DNA of 64,000 bases from a virus. The stretch is taken from positions 100,107-164,106 of the IMG/VR virus record IMGVR_UViG_3300020057_000027; one strand, 5' to 3'. The notes beneath the pieces were generated by a model that saw nothing but the letters and a program-made list of their open reading frames with translations, did not search any database and was not told the origin of the DNA. The translations under genes and the position numbers were made by a program. This document shows, piece after piece, positions 44-34,000 of this stretch (positions within the stretch are counted from its first letter, which is position 1; each line of letters begins with the position of its first letter).

Positions 44-289
44 ATGACTAAAGTAAGTACAGAGAAGAAAGAGTTGGCCGAGAAGATCGTGCAGGCTCTA
101 GGGCCTATTGTGACCCGAAAGCAGGTTCTAGCGTTCGTTAAGTCGAACGGCGGAGCGGTTGCTGATGTGCGGTTCATCTTTAATAACAAGAACTTCCGGG
201 CCGGTCGTGGTCAGTATGATCTTTCAAGCCTTAATGGTGTTGAAGCTACTAACACTTCCGTAGTGGGTGCTCCTGTTGTGAGTGCATAG
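44..289 (+). CDS. small protein resembling the N-terminal domain of the downstream AAA+ ATPase
   Basis: ATG at 44 follows GGAG (31-34); shares the pattern TR..V.A..K.NG...F......R..RG.Y with the N-terminus of 1190..2128. Confidence 0.75.
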   Translation: MTKVSTEKKELAEKIVQALGPIVTRKQVLAFVKSNGGAVADVRFIFNNKNFRAGRGQYDLSSLNGVEATNTSVVGAPVVSA

Positions 290-334
290 TCCTCAGGGCT
301 AATAAATTTCCTACCTGCCCTATTGAGCATCCTG

Positions 335-366
335 GCATACGATGTGGGACGTGTATGCTTTTTGTT
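335..366 (+). terminator. intrinsic terminator candidate
   Basis: GCATAC(335-340)/GTATGC(353-358) stem followed by TTTTTGTTT. Confidence 0.5.
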
Positions 367-374
367 TATAAATA
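367..374 (+). promoter_or_regulatory. T4-type late promoter TATAAATA
   Basis: exact T4 late consensus 5 nt upstream of ATG 380. Confidence 0.5.
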
Positions 375-379
375 ACTTT

Positions 380-649
380 ATGGATAAAAGGTTCATGCAA
401 TTATTGTTTACTCCGTTCTTTAGTGCAGCTATGCAGGGCACGGACTCGCATATTCCTGGACAGGAATATATCAATATAATGGTTAAGCGCATCAAAGAAA
501 TTAAAGCGCCGTTACAAACTGAGGTTCTGTTATACCTGGCCGCCGAATTAGAAAACACAGTAAGAAAGCTTCCAAGCATTCCGAGAGATCTCCGAGACGA
601 TTTCAAGCTTAAGATCGAAGCAATCAAGAAAGTCCTAGAAGAGTTCTAA
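380..649 (+). CDS. hypothetical protein
   Basis: ORF 323..649; in-frame ATG at 380, downstream of the terminator and late promoter, is the more plausible start. Confidence 0.6.
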   Translation: MDKRFMQLLFTPFFSAAMQGTDSHIPGQEYINIMVKRIKEIKAPLQTEVLLYLAAELENTVRKLPSIPRDLRDDFKLKIEAIKKVLEEF

Positions 650-10385: not shown

Positions 10386-10960
10386 AAGATGAATTAGAGA
10401 AAGAAATAACAGATAGTTGTCCTAAACTTTTCAGATCGTTCTGGGAAGAGAGACAAAAACTTAATGATCAATGGGCCGCTAAAGGTCGAGAACCTTTTCA
10501 TCCGATTGCTTTTGGTTTTGAGTGTGGTGGTGGGTGGTTTCCTATCCTAAAAGAACTATGCTTAAAGATTGAAGCATTAATCAATACATTACCGTTAGAC
10601 GAACAGCAAAATTTTCATGTTGCTCAGGTTAAAGAAAAGTTTGGCGGACTTAGATTCTATATGCATGGCGAGACTGATGAAATGAGTAAACTTATCAGAG
10701 AAGCAGAAGAAAAATGTGATTCTACTTGTGAGACTTGTTCCGCTCCATCTATCCAATTAGGTCAGGGCTGGATTGTTAATGCTTGTCGGCCGTGTTGGGT
10801 GAAGTATGCAGTCGGCCACAGTTATCGCTATGATACTGATGAAGAATCCCAAGGAAAGTATTATGATGATACTGTAAAGCGCATTAATAAACGTAAGACC
10901 GCACTAGCAAGAGTAAACAAACTAAGAACTAGTAAGGGTTTAGAAATCCGTCATTATTAA
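10382..10960 (+). CDS. conserved phage protein (QVKEKFGGLRFY family) with CxxC pairs
   Basis: FECG.GW...QVKEKFGGLRFY...AE..C..TCETC...C..C motif. Confidence 0.85.
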   Translation: MKDELEKEITDSCPKLFRSFWEERQKLNDQWAAKGREPFHPIAFGFECGGGWFPILKELCLKIEALINTLPLDEQQNFHVAQVKEKFGGLRFYMHGETDEMSKLIREAEEKCDSTCETCSAPSIQLGQGWIVNACRPCWVKYAVGHSYRYDTDEESQGKYYDDTVKRINKRKTALARVNKLRTSKGLEIRHY

Positions 10961-11001
10961 ATTGAACAAAATCAATACCTTATAGTCTCTTGGAATAACT
11001 G

Positions 11002-11040
11002 TTGACAGTGACGGATAATCCATGATATACTTATAGTATA
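11002..11040 (+). promoter_or_regulatory. sigma70-type early promoter (repeat copy 1)
   Basis: TTGACA-18 nt-TATACT with extended TG. Confidence 0.85.
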
Positions 11041-11139
11041 GAGAGTGAGTTGATATCAAATTCATTCTGAGGTGTTTACGGTTTCCACCTTTCCCACCAG
11101 AGACATATAAACCGTTTATTTTATAATGAGGTATTGAAC

Positions 11140-11397
11140 ATGATTACACAAAACGAATTGAACAAACTAAGCAGAGAAGAACTAAGAGAATTAAATCATC
11201 GTATCGTAGTAGCTTTAAACTATAAGCAAGCCGCACTAGCAATTACCTTTAGTGTTGGAGATCGGGTTTCCTTCACAGGAAAATATAATCAAAAATTAAC
11301 TGGTCAAGTTACCAAAGTAAACCTAAAAAGCATTAAAGTTAAAGATATTAATAATGGAAACTGGAAATGTTCACCAAGTCTATTAACTAAAATCTAA
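11140..11397 (+). CDS. small protein with C-terminal SH3/KOW-like beta-barrel
   Basis: FSVGDRVSF...GQVTKVN.K.I.V...W..SPSLL; GAGGT RBS. Confidence 0.75.
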   Translation: MITQNELNKLSREELRELNHRIVVALNYKQAALAITFSVGDRVSFTGKYNQKLTGQVTKVNLKSIKVKDINNGNWKCSPSLLTKI

Positions 11398-11431
11398 TAA
11401 AATCAACCACTTAGATATCGTGGAATAGTTG

Positions 11432-11490
11432 TTGACAGTAGCAGTTATTCCATGATATACTATAAGTATAGACAATAAGAACTAAGAGGT
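11432..11490 (+). promoter_or_regulatory. sigma70-type early promoter (repeat copy 2)
   Basis: TTGACA-18 nt-TATACT; flanks similar to 10971-11042. Confidence 0.85.
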
Positions 11491-11499
11491 AGTTATATT

Positions 11500-11786
11500 A
11501 TGATTCAATTAAGTGATACGCAAGTAAAAAAAATTAAGCAAGTGACTGGATATCGTGGTCGTAATGTTAAACTAGAAAACTTTAAACCTGGAATGGGTTT
11601 AGCTTCATATTGGGATGAGGGTTCTAAAAATAATTTTTGGATAATGGTCATGCGGTTCCGGTTTCATCTAATGGTGGACCGTTTCAAAAAAATGAAATCA
11701 AACTTGAAAATCTTGAAGCTAATCAAGTTGTAGCTGAAGTTAGTATTTTCAGAGGTAAATCAGTAGCTTTATATATTCATTCATAA
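11500..11786 (+). pseudogene. frameshifted early gene (true C-terminus in the -1 frame)
   Basis: after SYWDEGSKNNF the -1 frame reads LDNGHAVPVSSNGGPF...EVSIFRGKSVALYIHS* and stops at the RBS of the next gene. Confidence 0.65.
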
Positions 11787-11796
11787 GAGGTAAATC

Positions 11797-12051
11797 ATGA
11801 GTACAGCAACAATAATTGAAAGTCCGGAAACTTTAGTTTTGTTTAGTTATACTACTCCGGTTGCTTATGTCAATAAGTTGACTGGAGAAGTTTTCAAGAC
11901 AAGTAAAAAACATAGTAAGACTACTACTAAACATATCAATCAATTTTTTAGTGAGAAGGTTATTGGAAATACTCATTCTGCTTTTAACGTGATCGAAGTT
12001 GAGCAAGAGACATTAGACAAGAAATTTCCACTTAGCATTGTTAAACTATAA
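11797..12051 (+). CDS. conserved phage hypothetical protein
   Basis: LFSY.TPVA...T.K..S.TT.KHIN motif; GAGGT RBS. Confidence 0.85.
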   Translation: MSTATIIESPETLVLFSYTTPVAYVNKLTGEVFKTSKKHSKTTTKHINQFFSEKVIGNTHSAFNVIEVEQETLDKKFPLSIVKL

Positions 12052-12059
12052 GAGGTAAC

Positions 12060-12257
12060 ATGAAAGCAATATATTTTCCAAGTAGAAAAGAAGAACTATT
12101 GAAGCTATTAGAAGAGCTTAAAGACGTTGTACTAGCTAGTCGAAGTCTACTAGAGGGTGAGCATTATCGTGATGCTAGTGAGACGGTAAAGAGCTTGATT
12201 GAGACAATAGAAGAAAGAGAAGTTGAAGAAGTTGTTTTGGGAGATCAATATGAATAA
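12060..12257 (+). CDS. acidic hypothetical protein
   Basis: GAGGT RBS. Confidence 0.75.
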   Translation: MKAIYFPSRKEELLKLLEELKDVVLASRSLLEGEHYRDASETVKSLIETIEEREVEEVVLGDQYE

Positions 12258-12441
12258 AGAAAATTTAAATACTCCAAAACGTGTATGGGTGAATTCACCT
12301 AGTACACTTCAACCATATCACGAGCTACACGGAAGAATTGGAATCGCAGTCTTAATAAAAGACGAAGTACGAATTTACTTCACGGAAGGTTCAGTTCATA
12401 ATCAGCAAATAGATCCTTTATATCTTTCGGAGAAACATTAA
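12250..12441 (+). CDS. small SH3-like hypothetical protein
   Basis: GGGAG RBS before ATG 12250. Confidence 0.7.
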   Translation: MNKENLNTPKRVWVNSPSTLQPYHELHGRIGIAVLIKDEVRIYFTEGSVHNQQIDPLYLSEKH

Positions 12442-12442
12442 T

Positions 12443-12637
12443 ATGAAAAATGAAATATCAGTTGTGCTTAATGGGGTTGTTATTGGTAAGGTTTATGAGC
12501 TATCAGATCGTTGGGTTGCTCAGCCGTCGTGGTCGCTTTATAGTTGTTCGTTTCTTAGCAGTGAAGAAGCAATAATTGAACTTAAATTCCATTATCAAAC
12601 AAGTCAATTGCAATCAGGTAATCATCAAATACAATAG
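12443..12637 (+). CDS. hypothetical protein
   Basis: GGAG RBS, packed. Confidence 0.65.
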   Translation: MKNEISVVLNGVVIGKVYELSDRWVAQPSWSLYSCSFLSSEEAIIELKFHYQTSQLQSGNHQIQ

Positions 12638-12645
12638 AGGTATCA

Positions 12646-12882
12646 ATGAATAGTGAAGACATTAAACGTTATCAAAGAGCTTTTGAGCAGGGTAGACAAG
12701 ACGTATTAAACAAAACAGATACACTAGAGCTTGCAAGAGACGAAAAGGAATATGAATTCTATATCAAAGGTCGTAAAGATGCTGGAGAGATTCCAGTTAA
12801 AGTTGAACCACGGATTGAAGGTTATTCAAGACAAACTGCGGAAACTGAAAACGTTAATCCACTTAAAACTATACTCTTCTAA
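12646..12882 (+). CDS. hypothetical protein
   Basis: GAGGT RBS. Confidence 0.75.
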   Translation: MNSEDIKRYQRAFEQGRQDVLNKTDTLELARDEKEYEFYIKGRKDAGEIPVKVEPRIEGYSRQTAETENVNPLKTILF

Positions 12883-12899
12883 GAAAAACTCGTAGTTCT

Positions 12900-12953
12900 A
12901 AATGGGTAATATACTGGTTTCATTACCCTATTTCCGTTACTTATTACCCTATT
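12900..12953. repeat. ATTACCCTATT direct repeats plus one inverted copy
   Basis: exact copies at 12922-12932 and 12943-12953; inverted near-copy at 12900-12910. Confidence 0.7.
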
Positions 12954-12969
12954 ATATTCCAAATAAGTA

Positions 12970-13027
12970 TTGACAAGAGCATTGGATCTATGGTATACTA
13001 TAAGTATAGACAATAAGAATAAGAGGT
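12970..13027 (+). promoter_or_regulatory. sigma70-type early promoter (repeat copy 3)
   Basis: TTGACA-18 nt-TATACT; 12994-13019 identical to 11456-11481. Confidence 0.85.
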
Positions 13028-13028
13028 A

Positions 13029-13328
13029 ATGAGAATGAAAATTGAATTTAGTTTATTGAATAAGAAGTATAATGAAGCATTGAAGCTGGTTAAAAGTCCA
13101 GAGAATGAATCAAGTATTGTTAAGAACGTTCCGCTTGAGGTACTAGACAAGGTTAAAGAGATATTGAAAGAGACGTTTCCGAATTCAAAGTTTTATGTTA
13201 AGTATAGAGGTCCAAGACAAGCTGTTGGATCTGCTAGTGGTACGTGTTGGAAAAAGTTTGCTAAGTCGGCAGCTATATATTTCAAAACGTCATATGATTA
13301 TGAGACAAGAACTTGGAAGTATCAGTAA
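13029..13328 (+). CDS. conserved-type phage hypothetical protein
   Basis: YRGPR...C.K..A...AIY motif. Confidence 0.75.
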   Translation: MRMKIEFSLLNKKYNEALKLVKSPENESSIVKNVPLEVLDKVKEILKETFPNSKFYVKYRGPRQAVGSASGTCWKKFAKSAAIYFKTSYDYETRTWKYQ

Positions 13329-13356
13329 TTAGAGAGCTTATAAGGTTTAAAATTAT

Positions 13357-13465
13357 GCCGGGCTAGCTCAACGAAAGAGCGGCCAAAGAACACCGCACTG
13401 TCCGTGTTGAGGACAGAGAGCGGATTCTGGTGTAAGGGTTCCGGGTTAAACTCCCGGGCCCGGCG
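13357..13465 (+). ncRNA. tRNA-like RNA with extended anticodon arm
   Basis: perfect 7-bp acceptor GCCGGGC/GCCCGGC, T8A9, D-stem GCTC/GAGC, T-stem CCGGG/CCCGG with 7-nt loop; about 50-nt hairpin in place of the anticodon arm; no encoded CCA. Confidence 0.8.
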
Positions 13466-13545
13466 GCTTATAAGGTAGCGTTGGAAGACGAGAAAATAAC
13501 ACGAGGCGACTGTACGCGCCTACTCTAATGAAAAGTTTTTTTATG

Positions 13546-13581
13546 TTGACAGTATATGATTAATCTGGTATTATTATAATA
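13546..13581 (+). promoter_or_regulatory. sigma70-type promoter, likely leaderless transcript
   Basis: TTGACA-17 nt-TATTAT with extended TG; ATG 13581 is 7 nt after the -10. Confidence 0.75.
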
Positions 13582-14273
13582 TGGGTTGCGATATTCACAT
13601 ATATCCTGAGTGGTACTCTAAGAAAGACCAACTAGAAAGTATACCAGAAAAATCTGTTTGGATTCATTCCGCTTGTTCTGAATTTCATGTTGGTAGAAAT
13701 TACGAGCTGTTTAGTATAATGGCTCAAGTAAGAGGTGCTTCTCCATTTGGTTATTCACCAAGAGGTTTACCCGATGATCCAGCTCCTGGATTTGATGCTA
13801 GTTACAAATATAAACTAATAGTAATACCCGATGAAGAATTAAAAGAATCAGGTTCGTCGGATTTTGGACAGTCTTTTGTTGCAAAGAGTATAGCAGAAAA
13901 TTGGAAAACCTGTTTATGTTATTCAATCAAAGTATTACAAGATGCAGATCCAGAAAACAGAAAAAGAGAAGAGATCATGCATCCAGATTATCATTCTCAT
14001 TCGTGGTTGACCACAAAAGAATTATTTCACGTTAGACAGATCTATCTAAGAGAGCAGATCGAATTTAATTACTCCCAATATGATATGACAAAGAAGAAAG
14101 TTAAACCTCTTCTTAAAAAGCTTGATGATTGTCCAGACCCTATAGACCTGTTCAATATAAATTTTGGTAATTTTGAATATACTAGTCTTAATGCTTTGAT
14201 TGGTATGTTATATTCTGCTGAGAGAACTGATCCAGATACGCAAGGTAGAATAGTTTTTTGGTTTGATAGTTAA
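13581..14273 (+). CDS. conserved phage protein (MGCDIH family)
   Basis: MGCDIH...RNY.LF..MA.VR...PRGLP.D...HSHSWLT..EL...RIVFWFDS. Confidence 0.85.
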   Translation: MGCDIHIYPEWYSKKDQLESIPEKSVWIHSACSEFHVGRNYELFSIMAQVRGASPFGYSPRGLPDDPAPGFDASYKYKLIVIPDEELKESGSSDFGQSFVAKSIAENWKTCLCYSIKVLQDADPENRKREEIMHPDYHSHSWLTTKELFHVRQIYLREQIEFNYSQYDMTKKKVKPLLKKLDDCPDPIDLFNINFGNFEYTSLNALIGMLYSAERTDPDTQGRIVFWFDS

Positions 14274-14285
14274 AGGAAATATATT

Positions 14286-14570
14286 ATGTTTAAATACCCT
14301 GAATCGTTTGTTGCTAAGTGTAAAGAAGTTTATCCTGATTGGGAAGATCTCCATTATCAATTGAATCTCAATAGTCGAGCAGTTGGTAATATTCTTGAGC
14401 GTGGAGTAGGTTTCTCATTAGATGAAGAGATGATTATATCATTATTCAGAAACAAGAAAGAAACTAAAATTTTAGAAGCTGCTAAGAGAGCTAAACTTAA
14501 ACGAGATCTTTATAGAGAGTGGACAGAAGTGGTAGATACAATCATAGAGCATAACGGGCATGAGGTTTAG
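14286..14570 (+). CDS. hypothetical protein
   Basis: AAGGA RBS. Confidence 0.75.
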   Translation: MFKYPESFVAKCKEVYPDWEDLHYQLNLNSRAVGNILERGVGFSLDEEMIISLFRNKKETKILEAAKRAKLKRDLYREWTEVVDTIIEHNGHEV

Positions 14571-14571
14571 A

Positions 14572-14727
14572 GTGTCAGAAGACGAAGTGAAAGTTGTTTT
14601 TAAATGTGGTGTAGGTGAAGCACTAGCAATGATTATTTCATGGAGTCTTCATAAGTCTTTAATTTGGGCTATAGTTCATGGACTGTTTGGCTGGTTCTAC
14701 GTCATTTATTATATCATCGTAAGGTAA
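14572..14727 (+). CDS. small membrane protein (51 aa, not in track)
   Basis: GTG after GAGGT; G.G.ALAMIISWS..KSLIWAIVHGLFGWFYVIYY hydrophobic motif. Confidence 0.75.
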   Translation: MSEDEVKVVFKCGVGEALAMIISWSLHKSLIWAIVHGLFGWFYVIYYIIVR

Positions 14728-14787
14728 TATAGGTTTCTAAAACTGAACTAAATATCTCTATGATTGATAAAACATATGTAGAGATTT

Positions 14788-16710
14788 ATGGAAAGTAATT
14801 GGTTCGGAAAAGAAATGATATGGTGGAAAGGCGTTGTCGAAGACCGCAAAGACCCATTGTTTCTTGGCCGTTGTAAAATCAGAATATTCGGCTGGCACAC
14901 TCAAGATAAAACACAGATGCCGACTGAGGCACTTCCTTGGGCTCTACCAAGTCTACCTATTGATAACGGAAGAAGTCCTGTAGGGTTGCGCGAGGGTGAT
15001 TGGACGTGGGGTTTCTTCATGGACGGTTCTGAAGCACAACAACCAATTGTGTGTGGTTTCACTCCAGGAATTCCCGAAGATAAAGCAGACCCCGAAAAAG
15101 GATATCACGATCCAACTCCAGAAGAAGAATTATTAAGCACTCTACAACCAAGACCTCCTGAGTTTTCTCCTATTATTGAAGCTGAAGAAGGTGAAGAGGG
15201 AGAAGCTGTAGTTGGGTTAGGTAGATTTGATGACCCGAATAAGTTGCCTGGAGAAAACGTTGCGTTTGGTGAATTAACGCAAGACTATGATCCAGCATTA
15301 TATAAGTGGGACGTAAATCGTGATGGAAAATATGATGCCGTTGACGCACTTCAAATAAGTGATCCTGATGGTGATGGTATTCCCGGAACGGGAGCAGGCA
15401 GCGACGATATTTTTTCTGGTGGAGAAGTTACTACCATATCTTATCCGATGAGTAGGTATCCATTAGAGCCATTTTTAAATGAACCTACTACACCAAGAAT
15501 ATCAAGAAACGAAAAGATTGAAGAAACTATAGTTGCAAAAAAGAAAGGTGATCTTCAAACTGGTGATGCTGCCGCTCATGAAGCATTGGGTGTAGGTAGT
15601 GATCAGGGAGCAGAAGCAGAAGCGTTTGGTGAACCAGAAACACCATACGCAGCCAAGTATCCTTTTAATCACGTATATGAAAGTGAAGCTGGCCATTATC
15701 AAGAAATAGATGATACTCCTGGCGCAGAAAGATTACATTCGTATCATAGATCTGGAACATTCAATGAAATACATCCTGACGGTACGCAAGTAAACAAAGT
15801 AGTAAAAAAAGGCTTTCATTTTGTAGTAGAAGAACATAATTTTGCAACAAAGAGTTTTGCTAATTTTAGTGCTGCCCAAGCCTTTAGAATCAATGCTGGC
15901 GCAGAGATGAATCTAAAATCCGGCGGCGACATGAATCAAGATGCTGGTGGCAACCATAATACTATTGTTAAAGGTGATTCTAATAATAGAATAAAGAAGA
16001 ATTCATATACTGTTATTGAGGGTGATGTTAGAGTATTAGTAAAGGGTAACGTGTTTCTTGCCGTTGAAGGTAATTTAGAAACAAAAGTCGTCGGCAATAT
16101 TTTATTAGACGCTGGCGGAGATATATGTTTAACTGCTGGTGGTGGTATACATACAACCGCTCCACAAATTCATATGGTAACTCCTGTTGTTGAAGCTAAT
16201 GTTAAATTTGCTATGACGGCTGGAAGTTCTCCTATAGGACCTCCTCTGCCTGCAATACCACTACCTTGTACTCATATTAACACTGCTGATAATAAAGATA
16301 ATCTGGTGGCAGAACCATTTACACCAAAAGAAGGTTTTGTTTGGGAAGAACACACAGGAGATTTATGGAAACCAATATCAGATAGTGATGGTAATGCAGT
16401 TACTTTAAGTTTGACTTTGGGTGTTCCTCATTTCTTAGTAGAAGCACTTCCTACTGGAGCACTAGAGACAGTAACTATCAAATATAAACACAAAGATGGT
16501 AGAATAGTAGAATGGGAAGTTACAAGGCCAGTACATACACCAGGAACACGAATACTTGAAGCTGGTGTTTATAAAGGTAATGGCAACGGAGGTAGAGATC
16601 ATTACCGTTGGAGTAAACCAGGAGCTGAATATCCAACACAGATGTTTTTACGTATCGGTTCATATCATCAATTAATACTTTCAGCGGATGTTAGACATGA
16701 AGCTTTCTAG
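14788..16710 (+). CDS. gp5: baseplate hub/central spike, gp5-like, no lysozyme domain
   Basis: OB-fold WWKGVVEDR.DP..LGR..IRI.G.H; YPFNHVYESEAGH..EIDDTPGAERLH.YHRSGTF.EI.PDG; beta-helix repeats; CTAAATA upstream. Confidence 0.92.
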   Translation: MESNWFGKEMIWWKGVVEDRKDPLFLGRCKIRIFGWHTQDKTQMPTEALPWALPSLPIDNGRSPVGLREGDWTWGFFMDGSEAQQPIVCGFTPGIPEDKADPEKGYHDPTPEEELLSTLQPRPPEFSPIIEAEEGEEGEAVVGLGRFDDPNKLPGENVAFGELTQDYDPALYKWDVNRDGKYDAVDALQISDPDGDGIPGTGAGSDDIFSGGEVTTISYPMSRYPLEPFLNEPTTPRISRNEKIEETIVAKKKGDLQTGDAAAHEALGVGSDQGAEAEAFGEPETPYAAKYPFNHVYESEAGHYQEIDDTPGAERLHSYHRSGTFNEIHPDGTQVNKVVKKGFHFVVEEHNFATKSFANFSAAQAFRINAGAEMNLKSGGDMNQDAGGNHNTIVKGDSNNRIKKNSYTVIEGDVRVLVKGNVFLAVEGNLETKVVGNILLDAGGDICLTAGGGIHTTAPQIHMVTPVVEANVKFAMTAGSSPIGPPLPAIPLPCTHINTADNKDNLVAEPFTPKEGFVWEEHTGDLWKPISDSDGNAVTLSLTLGVPHFLVEALPTGALETVTIKYKHKDGRIVEWEVTRPVHTPGTRILEAGVYKGNGNGGRDHYRWSKPGAEYPTQMFLRIGSYHQLILSADVRHEAF

Positions 16711-17687: not shown

Positions 17688-19487
17688 ATGGCACAAATAA
17701 AATACACCGAATTAGACTTTGCTAAGATTAAAGATAATCTAAAGACATTCTTAAAATCACAAGATCAATTCAAAGATTATGATTTTGATGGTGCTGGTAT
17801 TTCGGTGCTACTAGATCTATTGGCATATAATACTGCCTATAACGGTTTCTATCTAAACATGCTTGCTAGTGAAATGTTTCTTGATAGTGCTGTTCTTAGA
17901 GATAGTGTAGTATCAAGAGCAAAACATTTAGGTTACACTCCACGATCAGTTCGTTCAAATGTTGCTACTATTGATTTAGAAATCTTTCCAGCTTTCGGTC
18001 CAGGAGCAACATCCCCGACAAGTATATTCATAGATACTACTCAAAAATTTTATGCTGTTGTTGATAATAAGAAATATATCTTCAGTCCAAAACAATCTAT
18101 ATTAATACAACCTAATGCTGGTAAATATCTTGCTACAGGTTTAGAACTAATTGAGGGAACAAGATTAACCCATAGATGGACTTTTGATGCGTCATTAAGC
18201 ATAAAACAGAGATTTATTATACCTAATAGTAATATAGATACCACTCAATTAAAAGTTACTGTACAAGATTCAGAAACTAATAATACAATAAGATCATATA
18301 ATCTGCACGAAGATATAAATGAATTAACTCCTGAGTCGCAAGTGTATTTTCTGCAAGAGGCAACAGATAAAAAATATGAAATTATTTTCGGTGATGGTGT
18401 AGTAGGTAAAGGTTTAATTGATGGCAACATTGTTATTGTAGATTATATTGTTTCATCTGGCAGCTTATCTGTTGGCGCAAAGAAATTTGTTCCTGTAGAA
18501 AAAGTTGGCGGTTATGATCAATCAACAATTGTTTGTACTATTCCGGCCAAGGGTTTTACTGAGCAAGAAAGTATTGATAACATTAAAAGATTGGCACCAT
18601 TAAATTATGATGCACAAAATCGAGCAGTAACTAGATTAGATTATGAGACATTAGTAAAGAAAGATATACCATCAATTCAATATCTCAGAGTATGGGGAGG
18701 AGAAGATAATGTACCTCCACAATATGGAAGAGTATTCATGTCGCTCAAGCCATTTACTGGAACATCATTATCTGAAGATCAAAAAGCGGCTTTAATTGAA
18801 GCATATATTAGACCTAGAAATCCAATTTCAATCGAAGTAAAAATTGTAGAGCCTGATTATCTAAGATTGCAGATAGAAAGTTTAATATTATATAAGAGTA
18901 GTAATACTATTTTATCTGAAGCTGATATTAAAAATAAAGTTAAAGATGCTATTATAGCATTTAGATCTGCTGAATTAAATGGGTTTGACGCAGATTTTAG
19001 ATATAGTAAGTTTGTTCAAACTATTGATGAAGCTGATATAGCTATTGAAGGAAATTTAACTAATATTAAAATGAAATATCGTATATTTCCTCCATTCAAT
19101 GTACCAACAAAATTTGAAATCAGCTTGAATAACTCAATAGATAAAGGTGATGCGGCTAACGGTTTAGCATCTATAGTTAGTAGTGCTTTCATATATAAAG
19201 GTAATACAACATTTGCAGGGGATGATGGTAAAGGTGTATTATCATTATTTCGCATAGTAAATGATCAAAAAGTTACCATAGAAAATAATATCGGAACCGT
19301 CAACTATGAAACTGGAGAAATAGTTTTAGATGGCTTCTTAGTTCAAAGCATTCCAGATAATAAAGACTATGTTGATTTTGTTATTGTACCTAAAGTACAA
19401 GACGTTGAATCATTACGTAACCAGATCCTTTTAATGGAAGATGAAGATATAATTCTGGCAACTAAAGATCTGAATAAAAAGGTTTAA
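17688..19487 (+). CDS. gp6: baseplate wedge subunit
   Basis: ELDF..IK.NLK.FL..Q..F.DYDF.G...LLD.LAYNT; YEI.FGDG; QNRAVT..DY; WGGEDN.PP.YG.V. Confidence 0.95.
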   Translation: MAQIKYTELDFAKIKDNLKTFLKSQDQFKDYDFDGAGISVLLDLLAYNTAYNGFYLNMLASEMFLDSAVLRDSVVSRAKHLGYTPRSVRSNVATIDLEIFPAFGPGATSPTSIFIDTTQKFYAVVDNKKYIFSPKQSILIQPNAGKYLATGLELIEGTRLTHRWTFDASLSIKQRFIIPNSNIDTTQLKVTVQDSETNNTIRSYNLHEDINELTPESQVYFLQEATDKKYEIIFGDGVVGKGLIDGNIVIVDYIVSSGSLSVGAKKFVPVEKVGGYDQSTIVCTIPAKGFTEQESIDNIKRLAPLNYDAQNRAVTRLDYETLVKKDIPSIQYLRVWGGEDNVPPQYGRVFMSLKPFTGTSLSEDQKAALIEAYIRPRNPISIEVKIVEPDYLRLQIESLILYKSSNTILSEADIKNKVKDAIIAFRSAELNGFDADFRYSKFVQTIDEADIAIEGNLTNIKMKYRIFPPFNVPTKFEISLNNSIDKGDAANGLASIVSSAFIYKGNTTFAGDDGKGVLSLFRIVNDQKVTIENNIGTVNYETGEIVLDGFLVQSIPDNKDYVDFVIVPKVQDVESLRNQILLMEDEDIILATKDLNKKV

Positions 19488-30417: not shown

Positions 30418-30657
30418 ATGAAAACTTCTTTAGTTGAAAATAATCCACAACTACGTAGAGATTTGAATACTGGTTCAGTGATTAATATAGACGAAAATGG
30501 TTATAGAAATCATAAGAAGCAAAAAGCTCTTAGTAAACAAAAAATAGAGTTAGAACAGGCCAAAGAAGAGCGAATAAATAGATTAGAGACAGACGTATCA
30601 GAATTGAAAACTGGTATAAATCAAATTTTAGAGATATTGAAAAATGCCAATTCTTAA
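30418..30657 (+). CDS. conserved small coiled-coil protein following the VrlC-like gene
   Basis: L.RD..TG.VIN.D...Y...RINRLE.DVSELK. Confidence 0.8.
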   Translation: MKTSLVENNPQLRRDLNTGSVINIDENGYRNHKKQKALSKQKIELEQAKEERINRLETDVSELKTGINQILEILKNANS

Positions 30658-31414: not shown

Positions 31415-34000
31415 ATGGCTTATATCGGTAACGGTAGAACATTATTAATTTTCGGACCTAATGCTCAAGATGACATTGTTCCTGATGGTGTATCTTCTAC
31501 TTTTAATTTATCTCAAGAAGTTCCTGGTGGTTACGAAGGTAATGTAGTAGTTGTTCGTAAAAGATATCTTTTAGACCAACTTATTGTTGAAAACGGTGGC
31601 GCTCCAATTTCTTTAGTTTCACCTAATAGAATCACTACGATTAATACAGATGTGGCGGCCGCCTTATCTATAGTTCAAGCTCCCACAACTGATAATGATT
31701 CATCTAATATTCACATCTCAGGATCGGGTGCTGGTAATGATGGTGTTTATAGAGTTGCTTCTATAAATTATACTGGAGACCAAATTGAAATTTTTATTAT
31801 AGGAACTTTTTTTGATGAATATAATGCTCCAATAGATGTTTCTTGGGGAAGAACAACTGAATGGGAAGTTCTTGAACCTGAACTTGATTATGTAATAGGT
31901 GGCGTAGGAAATAATACAAATCAAGAAATCACCTTTCAAGCTGGATATATTCCTGCCATTGATGATAAAATTTATGTTATTCATAAAGGTGATGCTACTT
32001 ATAATTTTGTTCCTTCACAGGCATCTGTTGGACCAGATCAATTACAACAAAATTTAAGAAACTTTGTATGCGATAGATATGTTGGAGATGGGACTACTAC
32101 TACTTTTGCTCTATCACAATTTGCCGTAAACGCTAAAACATTATTAGTATATCAAGTAGGCACAGAAAGAGATGGTGATGATCCAGATCAATCATTTATA
32201 GGCGATTGGTCATTAGCTCTTAATGGTCTTAGTATAACATTCGCTAGTCCTCCTAATATAGGAAATCCTATAAAAATTCTTCATTTAGGATTTTCTACTG
32301 TTGCTAGACGTGCTTCTTTATCTCCAGGACAGGCTGGTTTATTAGCTCCAGGAACTGTAAACAACGCTGCGCTCTCTGCCAATAGTGTAACTACAGATAA
32401 GATTGCACCTGGAGCAGTTCAAAATTCTGACATTGGTTCCGATGCAGTAGGTGGTTCTAAAATTCTTTTAAACAATGAAGAAAATCTTCGCGGTAAAGAT
32501 TTTGGTGGTACTGCTAGAGGTCTACTTAAAATAAATGCAAGCGATCAAACAGTTTTAAACTCTCAAGGTGATACACTACTTCAAGTTGCTGGTGTAACTA
32601 AAATAAAATTAGATAATGCTAATAGTGCATTATCTCCTGAAGTGACAAATACTATTGCATTAGGTACAGCAACAAAAAAATATTCTGCTTTATTTGTTCA
32701 AGGCACCGCAAGTCTTGGAGCTACCGATGTTACAACATTAAGTGCTTTAGGTAATATTACTGTAACAGGTAACGTTATTTTACCTACTGGTGGAGCAACT
32801 GTTGATGGTGTAGATCTTACAGCATTAAAAACTCAAGTAGACCAATTAGCATTAGATCTTCTTGCTGCTGTTCCTACAGGAACTATGAAAATGTGGATGG
32901 TTGATGGCGCTACCCCTGCTGGTTATCTACTATGTCAAGGGCAAGTAGTTTCACAAGCCACATATAGTAATTTATTTTCTGTATTAAGTACAACCTTTAA
33001 TACCGGCGGAGAAGGTGGTGGCAACTTTAGAATACCAGATTTAAGACAAAGATTTCCTATAGGTAAAGCCGCTTCAGGTACAGGATCTTTATGGGGTCCA
33101 GTTTCGGGTGTTGGTGGTTCAATAGATCATACTCATACTAGCGGCGCCCATACACACGATTTAAGTTCGCACACGCATGCGGTTCCTGGACATTTTCATG
33201 CACAAGATACAGGTGGCGGTGGCTCAACATTAGCCATAACTGGTTTATCGGGAACTCATACTACAAATATTGATATATCGCACGGACATACTGCAAGTTC
33301 TCTTGGTTCTTCAACTGGAGCTTCTATATCTCAAAGTGCCCACGCACATACTATTAATATTAGTGATCCTGGACATGCTCACAGTGTTTTTGATCCTGGA
33401 CATACTCACGGTATGGCCGGAATGAACGCTAACGCGAATCACTCCCATACTGGAAGCACAAATACAGACGGTTCACATAATCATGCCACTGATACTTCAA
33501 GAGGTGCCGGAGTAAATTCAGGTTCTACTGGAAAACCCGACAAAAATGATGGTAATGTGACTGCTAATACTGGTACTATGAATATAGATACCGCATCAAG
33601 TACCCACAGCCATGCATTTACAACTAATACGGCGAATGTTGATCACTCTCATACAATTTATGTAAACGGAACAGGAGTGGGAACAAATGGGATCGGCACA
33701 GGAGTAAGTGCTGTTTGTGTTCCAACTACAGCTAACGTAACTTTTAATGATGCATCACATTCCCATACTATAACAGTAAATGCTTTAGGTGCGACAAATA
33801 AAACTGATATTTCAGGCGTTCACACTCATGCAGCTAATACATTTTCTGGATCTATTGGTAATGTAGCAGGTGGTATTTCGGGCAACTCAAATTTTTCAAC
33901 ATTTGGGCCAAGTGCTGCCAATACGGGTTCCGCTGGAGCAGTAACAACTACTTCAAATAATCCTCCATTCCACACAGTGCATTTCATAATTAAAACATAA
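31415..34000 (+). CDS. tail fibre with collar domain and His-rich needle
   Basis: collar PTG...P.GYLLC.GQ.VS..TY..LF......F.IPDLR..F; 14 HxH motifs; ends NPPF.TVHFIIKT. Confidence 0.85.
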   Translation: MAYIGNGRTLLIFGPNAQDDIVPDGVSSTFNLSQEVPGGYEGNVVVVRKRYLLDQLIVENGGAPISLVSPNRITTINTDVAAALSIVQAPTTDNDSSNIHISGSGAGNDGVYRVASINYTGDQIEIFIIGTFFDEYNAPIDVSWGRTTEWEVLEPELDYVIGGVGNNTNQEITFQAGYIPAIDDKIYVIHKGDATYNFVPSQASVGPDQLQQNLRNFVCDRYVGDGTTTTFALSQFAVNAKTLLVYQVGTERDGDDPDQSFIGDWSLALNGLSITFASPPNIGNPIKILHLGFSTVARRASLSPGQAGLLAPGTVNNAALSANSVTTDKIAPGAVQNSDIGSDAVGGSKILLNNEENLRGKDFGGTARGLLKINASDQTVLNSQGDTLLQVAGVTKIKLDNANSALSPEVTNTIALGTATKKYSALFVQGTASLGATDVTTLSALGNITVTGNVILPTGGATVDGVDLTALKTQVDQLALDLLAAVPTGTMKMWMVDGATPAGYLLCQGQVVSQATYSNLFSVLSTTFNTGGEGGGNFRIPDLRQRFPIGKAASGTGSLWGPVSGVGGSIDHTHTSGAHTHDLSSHTHAVPGHFHAQDTGGGGSTLAITGLSGTHTTNIDISHGHTASSLGSSTGASISQSAHAHTINISDPGHAHSVFDPGHTHGMAGMNANANHSHTGSTNTDGSHNHATDTSRGAGVNSGSTGKPDKNDGNVTANTGTMNIDTASSTHSHAFTTNTANVDHSHTIYVNGTGVGTNGIGTGVSAVCVPTTANVTFNDASHSHTITVNALGATNKTDISGVHTHAANTFSGSIGNVAGGISGNSNFSTFGPSAANTGSAGAVTTTSNNPPFHTVHFIIKT

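What the first reader, a model, noticed from the sequence alone, without database searches (positions are those of the whole stretch)
13357..13465. tRNA-shaped RNA with a roughly three-fold elongated anticodon arm
Seen: GC-rich island with canonical acceptor, D and T arms. The anticodon arm is a 50-nt interrupted hairpin (GCC-AGAA/TTCT-GGT, CCGC/GCGG, CTGTCC/GGACAG) capped by the 7-nt loop GTGTTGA (T at position 33, GTT in the centre). The T-loop is TTAAACT rather than TTCRA, and there is no encoded CCA. Known: T4 makes tRNA-like stable RNAs of unknown function. Inference: too long to decode on the ribosome, so possibly a decoy for anticodon nucleases, synthetases or tRNA-sensing defences, or a substrate of unusual splicing.
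Basis: partly seen in the sequence, partly recalled or inferred. Interest (0 to 1): 0.75.

Follow-up and report, generated by a model that had tools for sequence, protein, structure and literature searches.

The report
Non-decoding tRNA-shaped RNA of a phage
A T4-like phage carries a real gene for an RNA with the upper half of a tRNA but a 50-base hairpin where the anticodon arm should be. It belongs to a small family in related phages that keep the tRNA-like upper half by compensating mutations while the middle arm differs in every phage. Its function is unknown.

Summary
Window 13357-13465 (+) folds into a cloverleaf with a 7-bp acceptor stem, a 4-bp D stem, a 5-bp T stem and a 50-nt interrupted arm. 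ARAGORN and Rfam do not call it.

It is not a decayed tRNA. I found four homologues in related uncultured phages (L098, L124, L125, L126). The acceptor and T stems covary: 90% of cells are paired, 7 of 12 pairs changed on both sides, and 0 of 500 shuffles reached the observed score.

All five T loops have A at position 56, never C. None encodes CCA. The middle arm is unalignable: a GCAA-capped 6-bp hairpin, a 37-nt hairpin, the 50-nt arm here, or two or more hairpins. The GUU "anticodon" loop is therefore peculiar to this phage, which argues against the anticodon-nuclease decoy idea as a family function.

The flanking 11-bp "direct repeat" is best read as the two strands of a palindromic leader-trailer helix. 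Relatives keep that helix with three compensatory changes and without the repeat.

The module occupies a different genomic slot here than in the relatives. In every case it lies at the end of a transcription unit.

The closest known RNAs are the tRNA-like stable RNAs of T5 (RNA1, RNA2) and T4 (RNA C), which are analogues without detectable homology. This scan has noted similar "tRNA-shaped RNAs with variable middles" in many other phage genomes. Expression could not be tested.

The parts
13357..13465 (+). tRNA-shaped RNA core (109 nt): acceptor stem, D arm, 50-nt middle arm, 9-nt variable region, T arm, discriminator G; no CCA
   Evidence: Sequence. MFE cloverleaf, z = -3.6. Family model R2 scores 82.4 bits. 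Covariation of acceptor and T stems across 5 members.
13357..13363 (+). Acceptor stem, 5' strand GCCGGGC; pairs with 13458-13464 GCCCGGC
   Evidence: Positions 4-7 show G-C, C-G, U-A, A-U and G-U across the family.
13366..13380 (+). D arm: GCTC / AACGAAA / GAGC. The 7-nt loop lacks G18G19.
   Evidence: The same 17-mer D arm occurs in a genuine tRNA-Arg(CCG) of another phage contig, L011.
13382..13431 (+). 50-nt interrupted hairpin in the anticodon-arm position (17 bp in four helices), with tip loop GTGTTGA at 13404-13410
   Evidence: It cannot be aligned with the middle arms of the homologues. A strain SNP, 13384 C>T, turns C:G into U:G.
13441..13457 (+). T arm: CCGGG / TTAAACT / CCCGG. The T loop has A56 in place of C56.
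   Evidence: A56, U54, R57 and A58 are shared by all five family members. The T stem is 100% paired, with 3 of 5 pairs changed on both sides.
13336..13346 (+). Left copy of the 11-mer GCTTATAAGGT. Its palindromic core CTTATAAG (13337-44) is the 5' strand of leader-trailer helix P1.
   Evidence: The 11-mer and the 8-mer each occur only twice in the genome, both here. They pair in the MFE fold of 13326-13545. Duplex energy -9.0 kcal/mol, reached by 8 of 1000 shuffles.
13466..13476 (+). Right copy of GCTTATAAGGT, the 3' strand of P1. It starts one base after the discriminator. The trailer start GCTTA is shared with L098 and L124.
13328..13334 (+). Outer helix P0, 5' strand ATTAGAG; pairs with CTCTAAT at 13523-13529
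   Evidence: MFE fold. The same outer helix forms in L098 and L124 with changed pairs. It is weak on energy alone in this phage.
13505..13520 (+). Trailer hairpin H (GGCG...CGCC), conserved in L098 and L124
13523..13529 (+). Outer helix P0, 3' strand CTCTAAT, followed by a run of seven T at 13536-13542
12970..12999 (+). Strong sigma-70-like early promoter (TTGACA-18-TATACT with TG) driving ORF 13029-13328 and, by inference, the tRNA-shaped RNA
13029..13328 (+). 99-aa ORF of unknown function immediately upstream. Its homologue in L098 is not adjacent to the RNA.
13546..13574 (+). Next early promoter (TTGACA-17-TATTAT), which marks the end of the unit that contains the RNA
256..380 (+). 'Slot A', the place where the four relatives carry their tRNA-shaped RNA. 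Here it holds only a terminator-like hairpin and a TATAAATA late-promoter motif.

Best explanation
This is a single-copy gene for a non-decoding, tRNA-derived small RNA. It is one member of a small family found in a narrow clade of uncultured T4-like phages.

Shown:
- The tRNA 'upper half' (a 7-bp acceptor stem stacked on a 5-bp T stem, with a T loop of the form U-K-A-R-A-N-N) is kept by compensatory mutations.
- The arm in the anticodon position is free to change in length, number of hairpins and sequence.
- The module can move between genomic slots.
- It always lies in sense orientation at the end of a transcription unit, just before the next promoter.
- In three of five members it is clamped by a leader-trailer helix that starts one base after the discriminator.

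Inferred:
- It is co-transcribed with the upstream early gene from the promoter at 12970.
- It is cut out by the host's tRNA-maturation enzymes: RNase P between U13356 and G13357, then 3' trimming after G13465, possibly followed by CCA addition by the host enzyme.
- It accumulates as a stable RNA of about 109 nt. This would be the same way the engineered 'tRNA scaffold' stabilises foreign hairpins in E. coli.
- Selection acts on the tRNA-like upper half rather than on the long arm. I therefore think it most likely works as a mimic of the tRNA upper half that engages a tRNA-binding factor of host or phage.
- The arm would be either neutral ballast or a fast-evolving effector.

The partner and the benefit to the phage are unknown.
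For: Cloverleaf:
- It is real and statistically unusual.
- The body resembles tRNA.

Homologues:
- L098:1739-1832 (also in L099), L124:823-901, L125:2208-2316 and L126:748-889.
- On a MAFFT alignment made without reference to structure (A5), the acceptor and T stems are 90% paired against 71.6% in shuffles.
- 7 of 12 pairs changed on both sides. The covariation score is 0.508 against 0.153, reached by 0 of 500 shuffles. Slid controls give at most 54% paired.
- Hand parse: acceptor position 6 shows G-C, C-G, U-A and A-U (A-G in L126). Position 50:64 shows C-G, U-A and A-U.
- All five T loops share U54, A56, R57 and A58.

Family model:
- R2 scores members at 47-90 bits.
- It scores ordinary tRNAs of other phages at 25 bits or less.
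- It matches none of the phage's own tRNAs at E<=1.

Strains: near-identical strains from at least four other samples all keep the element. The only SNP inside it is pair-preserving (C:G to U:G).

Transcription context: a strong early promoter lies upstream, the next promoter lies downstream, and every listed ORF above 70 aa between 9000 and 18000 is on the + strand.

Leader-trailer helix P1:
- Here it is CUUAUAAG/CUUAUAAG; in L098 and L124 it is GAUUAAG/CUUAAUC. That is three double changes at the same place relative to the discriminator.

Processing features: U is at -1 in 4 of 5 members and G at +1 in all.

Precedent for stabilisation: the tRNA scaffold, with hairpins inserted in place of the anticodon stem-loop, is processed and stable in E. 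coli (PMC3753655).

Against: - The ends, the processing, CCA addition and stability are all inferred.
- Only five members are known, and the flanking helices rest on essentially two lineages (this phage versus L098/L124). On energy alone, P1 and P0 are weak in several members.
- A56 and the missing G18G19 alter the tRNA elbow. By established knowledge RNase P reads the elbow, so cleavage may be poor.
- All 10 tRNAs that ARAGORN calls in this phage, and the tRNA-Cys it misses, encode CCA. This RNA does not, and the phage has no CCA-adding enzyme.
- The RNA is dispensable on evolutionary time. Relatives L104, L106, L018 and L020 lack it at this slot, and L127 lacks it at the other slot. 30 more distant T4-like records gave no hit.
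- A family in which only the processing-competent part is conserved fits a pure processing signal equally well (rival 1).
Confidence: 0.6

Rival explanations
1. It is RNA punctuation at the 3' end of a transcript rather than a working small RNA. The tRNA-like upper half would be only a built-in RNase P / 3'-processing site, together with a large terminal structure. That structure would end, trim or stabilise the upstream early mRNA. This is comparable to tRNA punctuation in mitochondria or to the mascRNA at the end of MALAT1 (both from my own knowledge). The excised RNA would be a by-product, which would explain why its middle arm drifts freely.
For: - Every member sits at the end of a gene, just before the next promoter.
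- Phages that lack the module have a plain terminator-like hairpin at that place (window 256-380; L127).
- In L125 and L126 a run of U follows the acceptor stem directly. Here seven T follow the closing helix P0.
- Only the part needed for processing is conserved.
- Leader-trailer helices would keep the flanks together.
Against: - A simple hairpin does the same job elsewhere in the same genome, so the cost of a 109-nt G+C-rich cloverleaf is unexplained.
- The conserved A56 T-loop signature and the retained D arm are not needed for a cleavage site.
- The arms are stable, fully paired hairpins rather than eroded sequence.
- No data exist on mRNA ends.
Confidence: 0.25
2. It is a decoy or sponge for a tRNA-targeting host defence or enzyme (anticodon nuclease, colicin-E5-like nuclease, queuine transglycosylase, AsnRS). 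The bait would be the U-GUU 7-nt loop held on a long arm.
For: - The tip loop GUGUUGA has U at the position of 33, GUU at 34-36 and a purine at 37.
- The discriminator is G. By my own knowledge, tRNA-Asn identity uses GUU plus G73.
- The phage encodes no tRNA-Asn of its own.
- No T4-type RNA ligase 1 was found in the phage (the control rang nowhere, so this is a weak negative).
Against: - None of the four homologues has an anticodon-like 7-nt loop, so this cannot be the family's function.
- Position 37 is G, not the A expected of tRNA-Asn, and position 32 is G (expectation from my own knowledge).
- An anticodon-nuclease bait does not need a 17-bp arm.
- The exact tip hairpin matches nothing meaningful in 185,579 species genomes (3 chance hits in coding DNA), so it does not mimic a repeated host element there.
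Confidence: 0.08
3. It is a dead tRNA gene or a recently inserted mobile fragment without function, and the 11-bp direct repeat is a target-site duplication.
For: - The 11-mer occurs only twice in the genome, bracketing the element.
- The element is absent from the same slot in relatives and sits at a different slot than in L098 and the others.
- It has no CCA, unlike every real tRNA of this phage.
Against: - Compensatory changes in the acceptor and T stems across five phages.
- Both copies of the repeat contain sequence that is ancestral to the module in relatives: leader ..UAAGG and trailer GCUUA... Those relatives have the helix but no direct repeat.
- No second copy exists in the genome.
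- No copies turned up in IMG/VR or JGI metagenomes with the T-arm, D-arm or combined patterns, so it is not a multicopy mobile element.
- All 33 pairs of the fold are intact.
Confidence: 0.05
4. It is a Y-RNA-like partner of a Ro60 (Rsr) protein, as with YrlA, with the long arm as the Ro-binding stem.
For: - YrlA RNAs are tRNA mimics with a long stem and occur in some phages (PMC4201824).
- The D loop reads AACGAAAG, one base off the GNCGAAN0-1G motif.
Against: - There is no TROVE (Ro60) gene in the complete phage genome, and the control genomes rang.
- No Rfam family, YrlA included, matched 13200-13650 at E<=10 apart from four chance-level hits at E>=1.
- The topology is opposite. YrlA has its ends in the long stem and a closed acceptor; here the acceptor is open and the long arm is closed.
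- The motif lies in the D loop, not in the stem.
Confidence: 0.02

Closest known systems
Phage T5 RNA1 and RNA2 (NC_005859 misc_RNA T5s03 at 30501-30644 and T5s06 at 32959-33083, annotated 'tRNA-like stable RNA with unknown functions')
   Same: When folded, both show an acceptor stem, a D arm, a T arm and a 55-60-nt irregular hairpin in the anticodon position. This is the same architecture. They are phage-encoded and their function is unknown.
   Different: - They lie inside the T5 tRNA cluster, whereas this RNA stands alone about 37 kb from its phage's tRNA cluster.
- Their T loops are canonical (UUCAACU, UUCGAAU), whereas this family has A56.
- Model R2 finds no homology at E<=10 with filters off.
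- I did not look for leader-trailer helices there.
Phage T4 RNA C (species 1, rnaC) and RNA D (species 2, rnaD)
   Same: They are small stable RNAs of a T4-type phage with unknown role. RNA C folds with an acceptor-like stem, a T arm whose stem is identical to the one here (CCGGG/CCCGG), and long hairpins in between.
   Different: - They lie in the tRNA cluster.
- RNA C has a canonical T loop, no clear D arm and two long hairpins.
- RNA D does not fold significantly (z = -0.8).
- R2 finds no hit.
Engineered 'tRNA scaffold' for recombinant RNA (Ponchon and Dardel; PMC3753655)
   Same: The acceptor stem, T arm and D arm are kept, and the anticodon stem-loop is replaced by an arbitrary hairpin. 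The chimera is recognised by the cell's tRNA machinery, processed precisely and protected from nucleases. This is the best functional model for how the present RNA could mature and persist.
   Different: It is man-made, built on a tRNA with a canonical elbow, and its purpose is production. The resemblance says nothing about what the natural RNA is for.
YrlA-type bacterial and phage Y RNAs (PMC4201824)
   Same: They are tRNA mimics with D- and T-arm look-alikes and a long stem. One is cleaved by RNase P and receives CCA.
   Different: The topology is permuted, they are linked to Ro60 (absent here), they have a canonical T loop, and there is no Rfam match.
Canonical tRNA (Rfam RF00005)
   Same: It shares the 7-bp acceptor stem, U8, A14, A21, G26, the G53:C61 pair, U54, U55 and A58, as well as the cloverleaf order of arms. 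tRNAs score 24-39 bits on a model of this RNA once the arm is skipped.
   Different: - The anticodon arm is 50 nt instead of 17.
- It has A56, no G18G19, a 9-nt variable region and no CCA.
- RF00005 gives no hit even at E<=10, although it scores this phage's own odd tRNAs at 40 bits or more.

Membership tests
Canonical tRNA (RF00005) | Scores at or above the Rfam gathering score (29 bits), or is called by a tRNA finder | tested here: not met
   No RF00005 hit at gathering scores or at E<=10 on 451 nt. ARAGORN at default settings finds none. Only at a relaxed setting does it guess 'tRNA-Ile with a 35-nt intron'.
Canonical tRNA (RF00005) | 5-bp anticodon stem with a 7-nt loop at the standard distance from the acceptor end | tested here: not met
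   The arm has 17 bp in four helices and is 50 nt long.
Canonical tRNA (RF00005) | Elbow nucleotides G18, G19 and C56 | tested here: not met
   The D loop is AACGAAA and the T loop is UUAAACU. A56 is present in all five family members.
Canonical tRNA (RF00005) | 7-bp acceptor stem stacked on a 5-bp T stem, with U8, A14, U54 and A58 | tested here: met
Phage tRNA-like stable RNAs (T5 RNA1/RNA2, T4 RNA C): a kind, not a homologous family | tRNA-like acceptor and T arm with an oversized arm in place of the anticodon arm, encoded by a virulent phage | tested here: met
   Folds. The genome is T4-like: it has gp5 and gp6.
Phage tRNA-like stable RNAs (T5 RNA1/RNA2, T4 RNA C) | Located within the phage tRNA gene cluster | tested here: not met
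   The tRNA and tmRNA genes lie at genome 70.7-76.1 kb. This RNA is at 113.46 kb.
Phage tRNA-like stable RNAs (T5 RNA1/RNA2, T4 RNA C) | Sequence or profile homology to the T4 or T5 RNAs | tested here: not met
   R2 with filters off gives no hit on rnaC, rnaD, RNA1 or RNA2 at E<=10.
Phage tRNA-like stable RNAs (T5 RNA1/RNA2, T4 RNA C) | Accumulates as a stable RNA during infection | not testable with these tools
The host is uncultured.
The family defined here (window, L098/L099, L124, L125, L126) | Acceptor stem starting GCC, 5-bp T stem ending GG/CC, T loop U-K-A-R-A-N-N, no CCA, a non-anticodon middle arm, and a position at the end of a transcription unit | tested here: met
   R2 scores members at 47-90 bits.
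YrlA / Y RNA | Encoded near a Ro60 (TROVE) gene | tested here: not met
   PF05731 is absent from the complete genome, and the control genomes rang.
YrlA / Y RNA | RNA ends in the long Ro-binding stem, with the acceptor-like stem closed by a loop | tested here: not met
   Here the acceptor is open and the long arm is closed.
YrlA / Y RNA | GNCGAAN0-1G motif near the 5' end | tested here: inconclusive
   AACGAAAG is present, but in the D loop and with A in place of the first G.
Intron-containing tRNA | Removing one contiguous insert restores a canonical anticodon stem-loop | tested here: not met
   In a scan of several hundred single deletions, only 12 are called by ARAGORN. Their anticodons disagree (Leu, Ile, Val, or four- and two-base 'anticodons'), and none has U33 with a proper stem.

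The most novel reading that the evidence does not exclude
The family would be a natural 'tRNA scaffold display' system. Phages would keep a processing-competent tRNA upper half, marked by an altered A56 elbow so that it is matured and stabilised but kept out of translation. They would swap or rapidly evolve the arm in the anticodon position as the active part: an RNA aptamer or decoy aimed at a host defence or RNA-binding protein that differs from host to host. The 50-nt arm with its U-GUU loop would then be this phage's own bait.
Probability: 0.2. Interest if true: 0.8.

Novelty: new variant of a known kind. Interest (0 to 1): 0.5.

Why it matters
tRNA-like stable RNAs of T4 and T5 have been known for about fifty years without a function (PMC3014915). 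The T5 record still annotates RNA1 and RNA2 as 'tRNA-like stable RNA with unknown functions'.

This case adds three things to that old question.
- It is a separate lineage, not homologous to the T4 or T5 RNAs, in which selection can be read directly. The acceptor/T minihelix and an unusual A56 T loop are maintained, and the anticodon-position arm is not.
- The gene stands alone at the end of an early transcription unit and has moved between slots, so it behaves as a self-contained module.
- It has candidate leader-trailer helices, which make definite, testable predictions about processing.

Together with this scan's many similar notes on other phages, it suggests that non-decoding tRNA look-alikes are a general and unannotated class of phage RNA. 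tRNA finders and Rfam miss them.

Tried and rejected
**Near matches.** Megablast of 12000-15000 and blastn of 13330-13480 against 50,697 GenBank phages gave nothing beyond chance 19-20-mers.

**Exact-pattern scans**
- IMG/VR with the T arm and the D arm returned other phages' tRNAs and unrelated DNA.
  - L003/L004: a tRNA-Cys.
  - L011: a tRNA-Arg.
  - L005/L006/L008: an ambiguous tRNA-like remnant that does not fold significantly, z -0.1 to -1.1.
- The combined D-arm plus T-loop pattern found only L012 in IMG/VR. It gave two unconvincing hits in JGI metagenomes.
- Family-derived patterns gave L111 and L112-L123, none of which is related.

**Relatives of gp6 and of the 230-aa neighbour**
- 80 gp6-linked loci and 30 whole records gave no hit with R1 or R2.
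- The syntenic gap upstream of the 230-aa gene holds only a promoter in L104 and L106 and coding sequence in L018 and L020.

**CRISPR-repeat or host-element mimicry by the tip hairpin.** No Rfam CRISPR-DR hit. The exact 19-mer gave three chance hits in coding DNA of species-representative genomes.

**Intron hypothesis.** Tested by a deletion scan.

**Partner enzymes in the phage.** No TROVE and no CCA-adding enzyme. The Rnl1 search was uninformative because the control rang nowhere.

**Self-similarity or antisense targets in the genome.** Nothing beyond 10-12-mers, plus one 16-mer in the trailer.

**MAFFT on the whole modules.** It misaligned them, so the flanking helices were compared by separate folds and duplex energies instead.

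The last IMG/VR scan, with the 89-aa neighbour alignment, found no relatives.
Full report
**What is there**

The window is the right-hand 64 kb of a complete 164,106-bp IMG/VR phage genome with terminal repeats. The phage is T4-like: gp5 lies at 14788-16710 and gp6 at 17688-19487.

At 13357-13465 on the + strand lies a 109-nt stretch of about 60% G+C (0.61). It is the longest run of G+C-rich 60-nt windows in the window, in a region that is otherwise 32-37% G+C. No ORF of 40 aa or more overlaps it.

It has a 7-bp acceptor stem, a 4-bp D stem with the loop AACGAAA, and a 50-nt arm of four helices (17 bp) capped by GUGUUGA. A 9-nt variable region follows, then a 5-bp T stem with the loop UUAAACU and the discriminator G. 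The energy is -50.7 kcal/mol with z = -3.6. The arm alone gives z = -3.0.

The standard detectors miss it.
- ARAGORN finds nothing.
- Rfam finds nothing at gathering scores, nor at E<=10 on a 451-nt slice.
- The Rfam tRNA model does score this phage's own odd tRNAs at 40 bits or more.

The body is still clearly tRNA-derived.
- U8, A14, A21, G26, G53:C61, U54, U55 and A58 are all present.
- A covariance model of the element (R1) hits genuine phage tRNAs at 24-39 bits when the arm is skipped.
- ARAGORN calls a tRNA once 20-35 nt of the arm are deleted, though with contradictory anticodons.

ARAGORN tRNAs in this phage. It misses a tRNA-Cys, and a tmRNA is also present. All of these lie about 37 kb away. 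All 10 tRNAs and the tRNA-Cys end in an encoded CCA. This RNA has none.

**Is it conserved?**

At first the element looked like an orphan.
- GenBank phages gave no similarity.
- 80 gp6-linked loci and 30 whole related records gave no hit.
- Relatives that carry the neighbouring 230-aa gene have nothing at this position.
- Contigs from at least four other samples are 99.8-100% identical over the region and all keep the element. The single SNP inside it, 13384 C>T, changes C28:G73 into U:G, so the pair survives.

The turning point was a weak R1 hit (15.4 bits) in L098. This Logan contig had been fetched because it carries a 61%-identical homologue of the upstream 99-aa ORF. L098:1739-1832 (also present in L099) folds as a cloverleaf. 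Its D loop is AACGUUA, its T loop is UUAAAUU, it has a 37-nt closed hairpin in the anticodon position and it has no CCA.

In L098 the element lies between homologues of window ORFs 44-256 and 380-646. Homologues of the second of these genes led to three more contigs. Each has a tRNA-shaped element in the same gap.
- L124:823-901 is 79 nt. Its middle arm is a 6-bp hairpin with a GCAA tetraloop.
- L125:2208-2316 is 109 nt, with two hairpins in the middle.
- L126:748-889 is 142 nt.

**Covariation**

MAFFT aligned the five cores without any structural guidance (A5). I then counted pairs for the acceptor and T stems.

| Measure | Observed | Shuffled |
|---|---|---|
| Cells paired | 90% | 71.6% |
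| Covariation score | 0.508 | 0.153 |
| Pairs changed on both sides | 7 of 12 | – |
| Shuffles reaching the observed score | 0 of 500 | – |

Sliding the partners by 1-3 columns drops pairing to 34-54%.

A hand parse corrects a one-column shift in L124.
- Acceptor position 6 reads G-C, C-G, U-A and A-U (A-G in L126).
- T-stem positions 49-51 also vary by double changes.
- The five T loops are UUAAACU, UUAAAUU, UGAGAAU, UUAAAGU and UGAAAGA. U54, A56, R57 and A58 are constant, and C56 never occurs.
- None of the five has CCA.
- The discriminators are G, A, C, U and A.

A family model built from A5 (R2) separates members from tRNAs.
- Members score 47-90 bits.
- Ordinary tRNAs of other phages score 25 bits or less with filters off.
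- None of the phage's own tRNAs matches at E<=1.

This is a maintained structured RNA, not a decaying tRNA gene. Five sequences are few, and the shuffle test does not correct for relatedness. The slid controls and the variety of pair types make the conclusion reasonably firm all the same.

**What varies**

The arm in the anticodon position cannot be aligned between members, and it differs in length and in the number of hairpins. Only this phage has a 7-nt loop with U at '33' and GUU in the centre. The others end in tri-, tetra- or pentaloops. The anticodon-like loop is therefore a local peculiarity. An explanation built on it (an anticodon-nuclease, Tgt or AsnRS decoy) cannot be the family's function, although it is not excluded for this one phage.

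**The 11-bp direct repeat**

GCTTATAAGGT occurs only twice in the genome, at 13336-46 and 13466-76, bracketing the element. Its core CTTATAAG is a palindrome that also occurs nowhere else in the genome. A target-site duplication was the obvious reading.

However, the two copies pair with each other in the fold of 13326-13545. The duplex energy is -9.0 kcal/mol, reached by 8 of 1000 shuffles. The homologues L098 and L124 have a helix at the same place, with its 3' strand again starting one base after the discriminator. There it reads GAUUAAG/CUUAAUC. That is three compensatory differences and no direct repeat.

Both copies here also contain sequence that belongs to the module in the relatives: leader ..UAAGG and trailer GCUUA.. 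I therefore read the repeat as the two strands of a leader-trailer helix, P1, that happens to be palindromic in this phage.

Two further flanking features recur.
- An outer helix, P0, reads ATTAGAG at 13328-34 with CTCTAAT at 13523-29. In L098 it is UUAGACCGA/UUGGUCUAA and in L124 it is UUAGAUCGA/UCGGUCUAA.
- A trailer hairpin, H, reads GGCG..CGCC at 13505-20.

These recur in the same three members. They rest on only two lineages, and most are weak on energy alone. L125 and L126 instead have a leader hairpin and a run of U directly after the acceptor stem.

**Context and mobility**

A strong early promoter (TTGACA-18-TATACT, 12970-99) precedes the 99-aa ORF and the RNA. The next early promoter starts at 13546, after seven T.

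In the four relatives the module follows a 79-83-aa gene and precedes a late-promoter-like TATAAATA motif. In this phage that slot (256-380) holds only a terminator-like hairpin, and the same is true in L127.

The module has thus changed place between related genomes. It is absent from some of them. It always occupies the end of a transcription unit.

**How it probably works**

Shown:
- There is a conserved, non-decoding tRNA-shaped RNA.
- Selection acts on its upper half.
- The middle arm is hypervariable.
- The module sits at the end of a transcription unit.

Inferred:
- It is co-transcribed with the early gene.
- RNase P cuts at U-1/G+1, the 3' end is trimmed, and host CCA addition may follow. 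The phage has no CCA-adding enzyme of its own.
- It persists as a stable RNA.

The engineered tRNA scaffold shows that E. coli processes and protects exactly such chimeras. [quoted passage not shown]

Because only the upper half is conserved, I favour a mimic of the tRNA upper half that engages some tRNA-binding factor. The main rival is a pure processing, termination or stabilising signal for the early mRNA. I cannot separate the two without RNA data. The A56 elbow is the most distinctive conserved feature and remains unexplained.

**Comparison with known RNAs**

The closest described things are the tRNA-like stable RNAs of T5 (RNA1, RNA2) and T4 (RNA C).

| | T5 RNA1/RNA2, T4 RNA C | This family |
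|---|---|---|
| Architecture | Acceptor, T arm and long arm; D arm in the T5 RNAs only | Acceptor, D arm, T arm, long arm |
| Function | Unknown | Unknown |
| Location | Inside the tRNA cluster | Solitary, about 37 kb from the tRNA cluster |
| T loop | Canonical | A56 |
| R2 match | None at E<=10 | 47-90 bits |

YrlA-type Y RNAs are excluded by topology, by the absence of Ro60 and by the absence of any Rfam match.

This scan's earlier notes describe many 'tRNA-shaped phage RNAs with variable or swappable middles' in other genomes. I took these as leads. What I verified myself is the T5 annotation and fold, the T4 comparison and, for this clade only, the pattern of a conserved upper half with a variable middle.

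**Verdict**

The feature is real and conserved, and the standard tools miss it. It is a new variant of an old and still unexplained kind of phage RNA. The decoy and splicing ideas are not supported at the level of the family. Interest is moderate: the class is not new in principle, but this lineage gives clean evidence of what is under selection and definite experiments to run.

Noticed in passing
L110:4440-4560 (genome G000:C1 about 74740-74860, outside the window): Between the two tRNA clusters lies a hammerhead-like core. It reads CACAC-CUGAUGA-GUCC AUAA GGAC-GAAAC-AGGGGAG ... CUCCUCCCCU-GUC-GUGUG, with the stems I, II and III and the GUC site in the right order. Rfam reported no hammerhead at E<=0.01, perhaps because stem III carries an insert of about 40 nt. 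It remains an unconfirmed candidate ribozyme in a phage tRNA region.
   Followed up: partly
L110:846-917 and L110:5592-5664 (genome 71145-71216 and 75891-75963): The Rfam tRNA model finds two tRNAs that ARAGORN misses. One lies directly after the tmRNA. The other is a tRNA-Cys(GCA) with the odd T loop CGCACAU. Every tRNA whose sequence I printed in this phage (the 10 that ARAGORN calls and this tRNA-Cys) encodes its CCA.
   Followed up: partly
L012:2700-2795 (- strand), a 214-kb IMG/VR phage with terminal repeats: Another tRNA look-alike that ARAGORN does not call sits among that phage's tRNA genes (the nearest called one is about 0.7 kb away). Its D arm is identical to the one studied here (GCTCAACGAAAGAGC). 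Its T loop is UUUAACU (U56). It has a 29-nt closed hairpin in the anticodon position and an encoded CCA. The fold is only marginal (z = -1.8), and neither R1 nor R2 recognises it.
   Followed up: partly
L003:4582-4656 and L004 (IMG/VR contigs): A normally sized tRNA-Cys(GCA), called by ARAGORN, carries the same unusual T arm CCGGG-UUAAACU-CCCGG. An A56 T loop therefore also exists in apparently decoding phage tRNAs.
   Followed up: no
window 13581-14273: The 230-aa ORF downstream of the RNA (phrog_10141, no Pfam match) is a conserved neighbour upstream of gp5 in relatives with 40-54% identity. It starts MGCDIH.. in this phage and MG-D.. (ATGGG..GAT) in the relatives whose starts were printed (L104, L106, L018, L020). 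Its function is unknown.
   Followed up: partly
L104:5184-5915: One relative has a SprT-like metalloprotease gene inserted between the 96-aa ORF and gp5. This phage has only a 55-aa ORF at that place.
   Followed up: no
window 10800-13600: The small early ORFs form single-gene cassettes. Each is headed by a near-consensus TTGACA-17/18-TATACT or TATTAT promoter with an extended TG (at 11002, 11432, 12970 and 13546). Gene order in this region is scrambled between relatives; ORF99, the DUF8033 gene and others appear in a different order in L098.
   Followed up: partly
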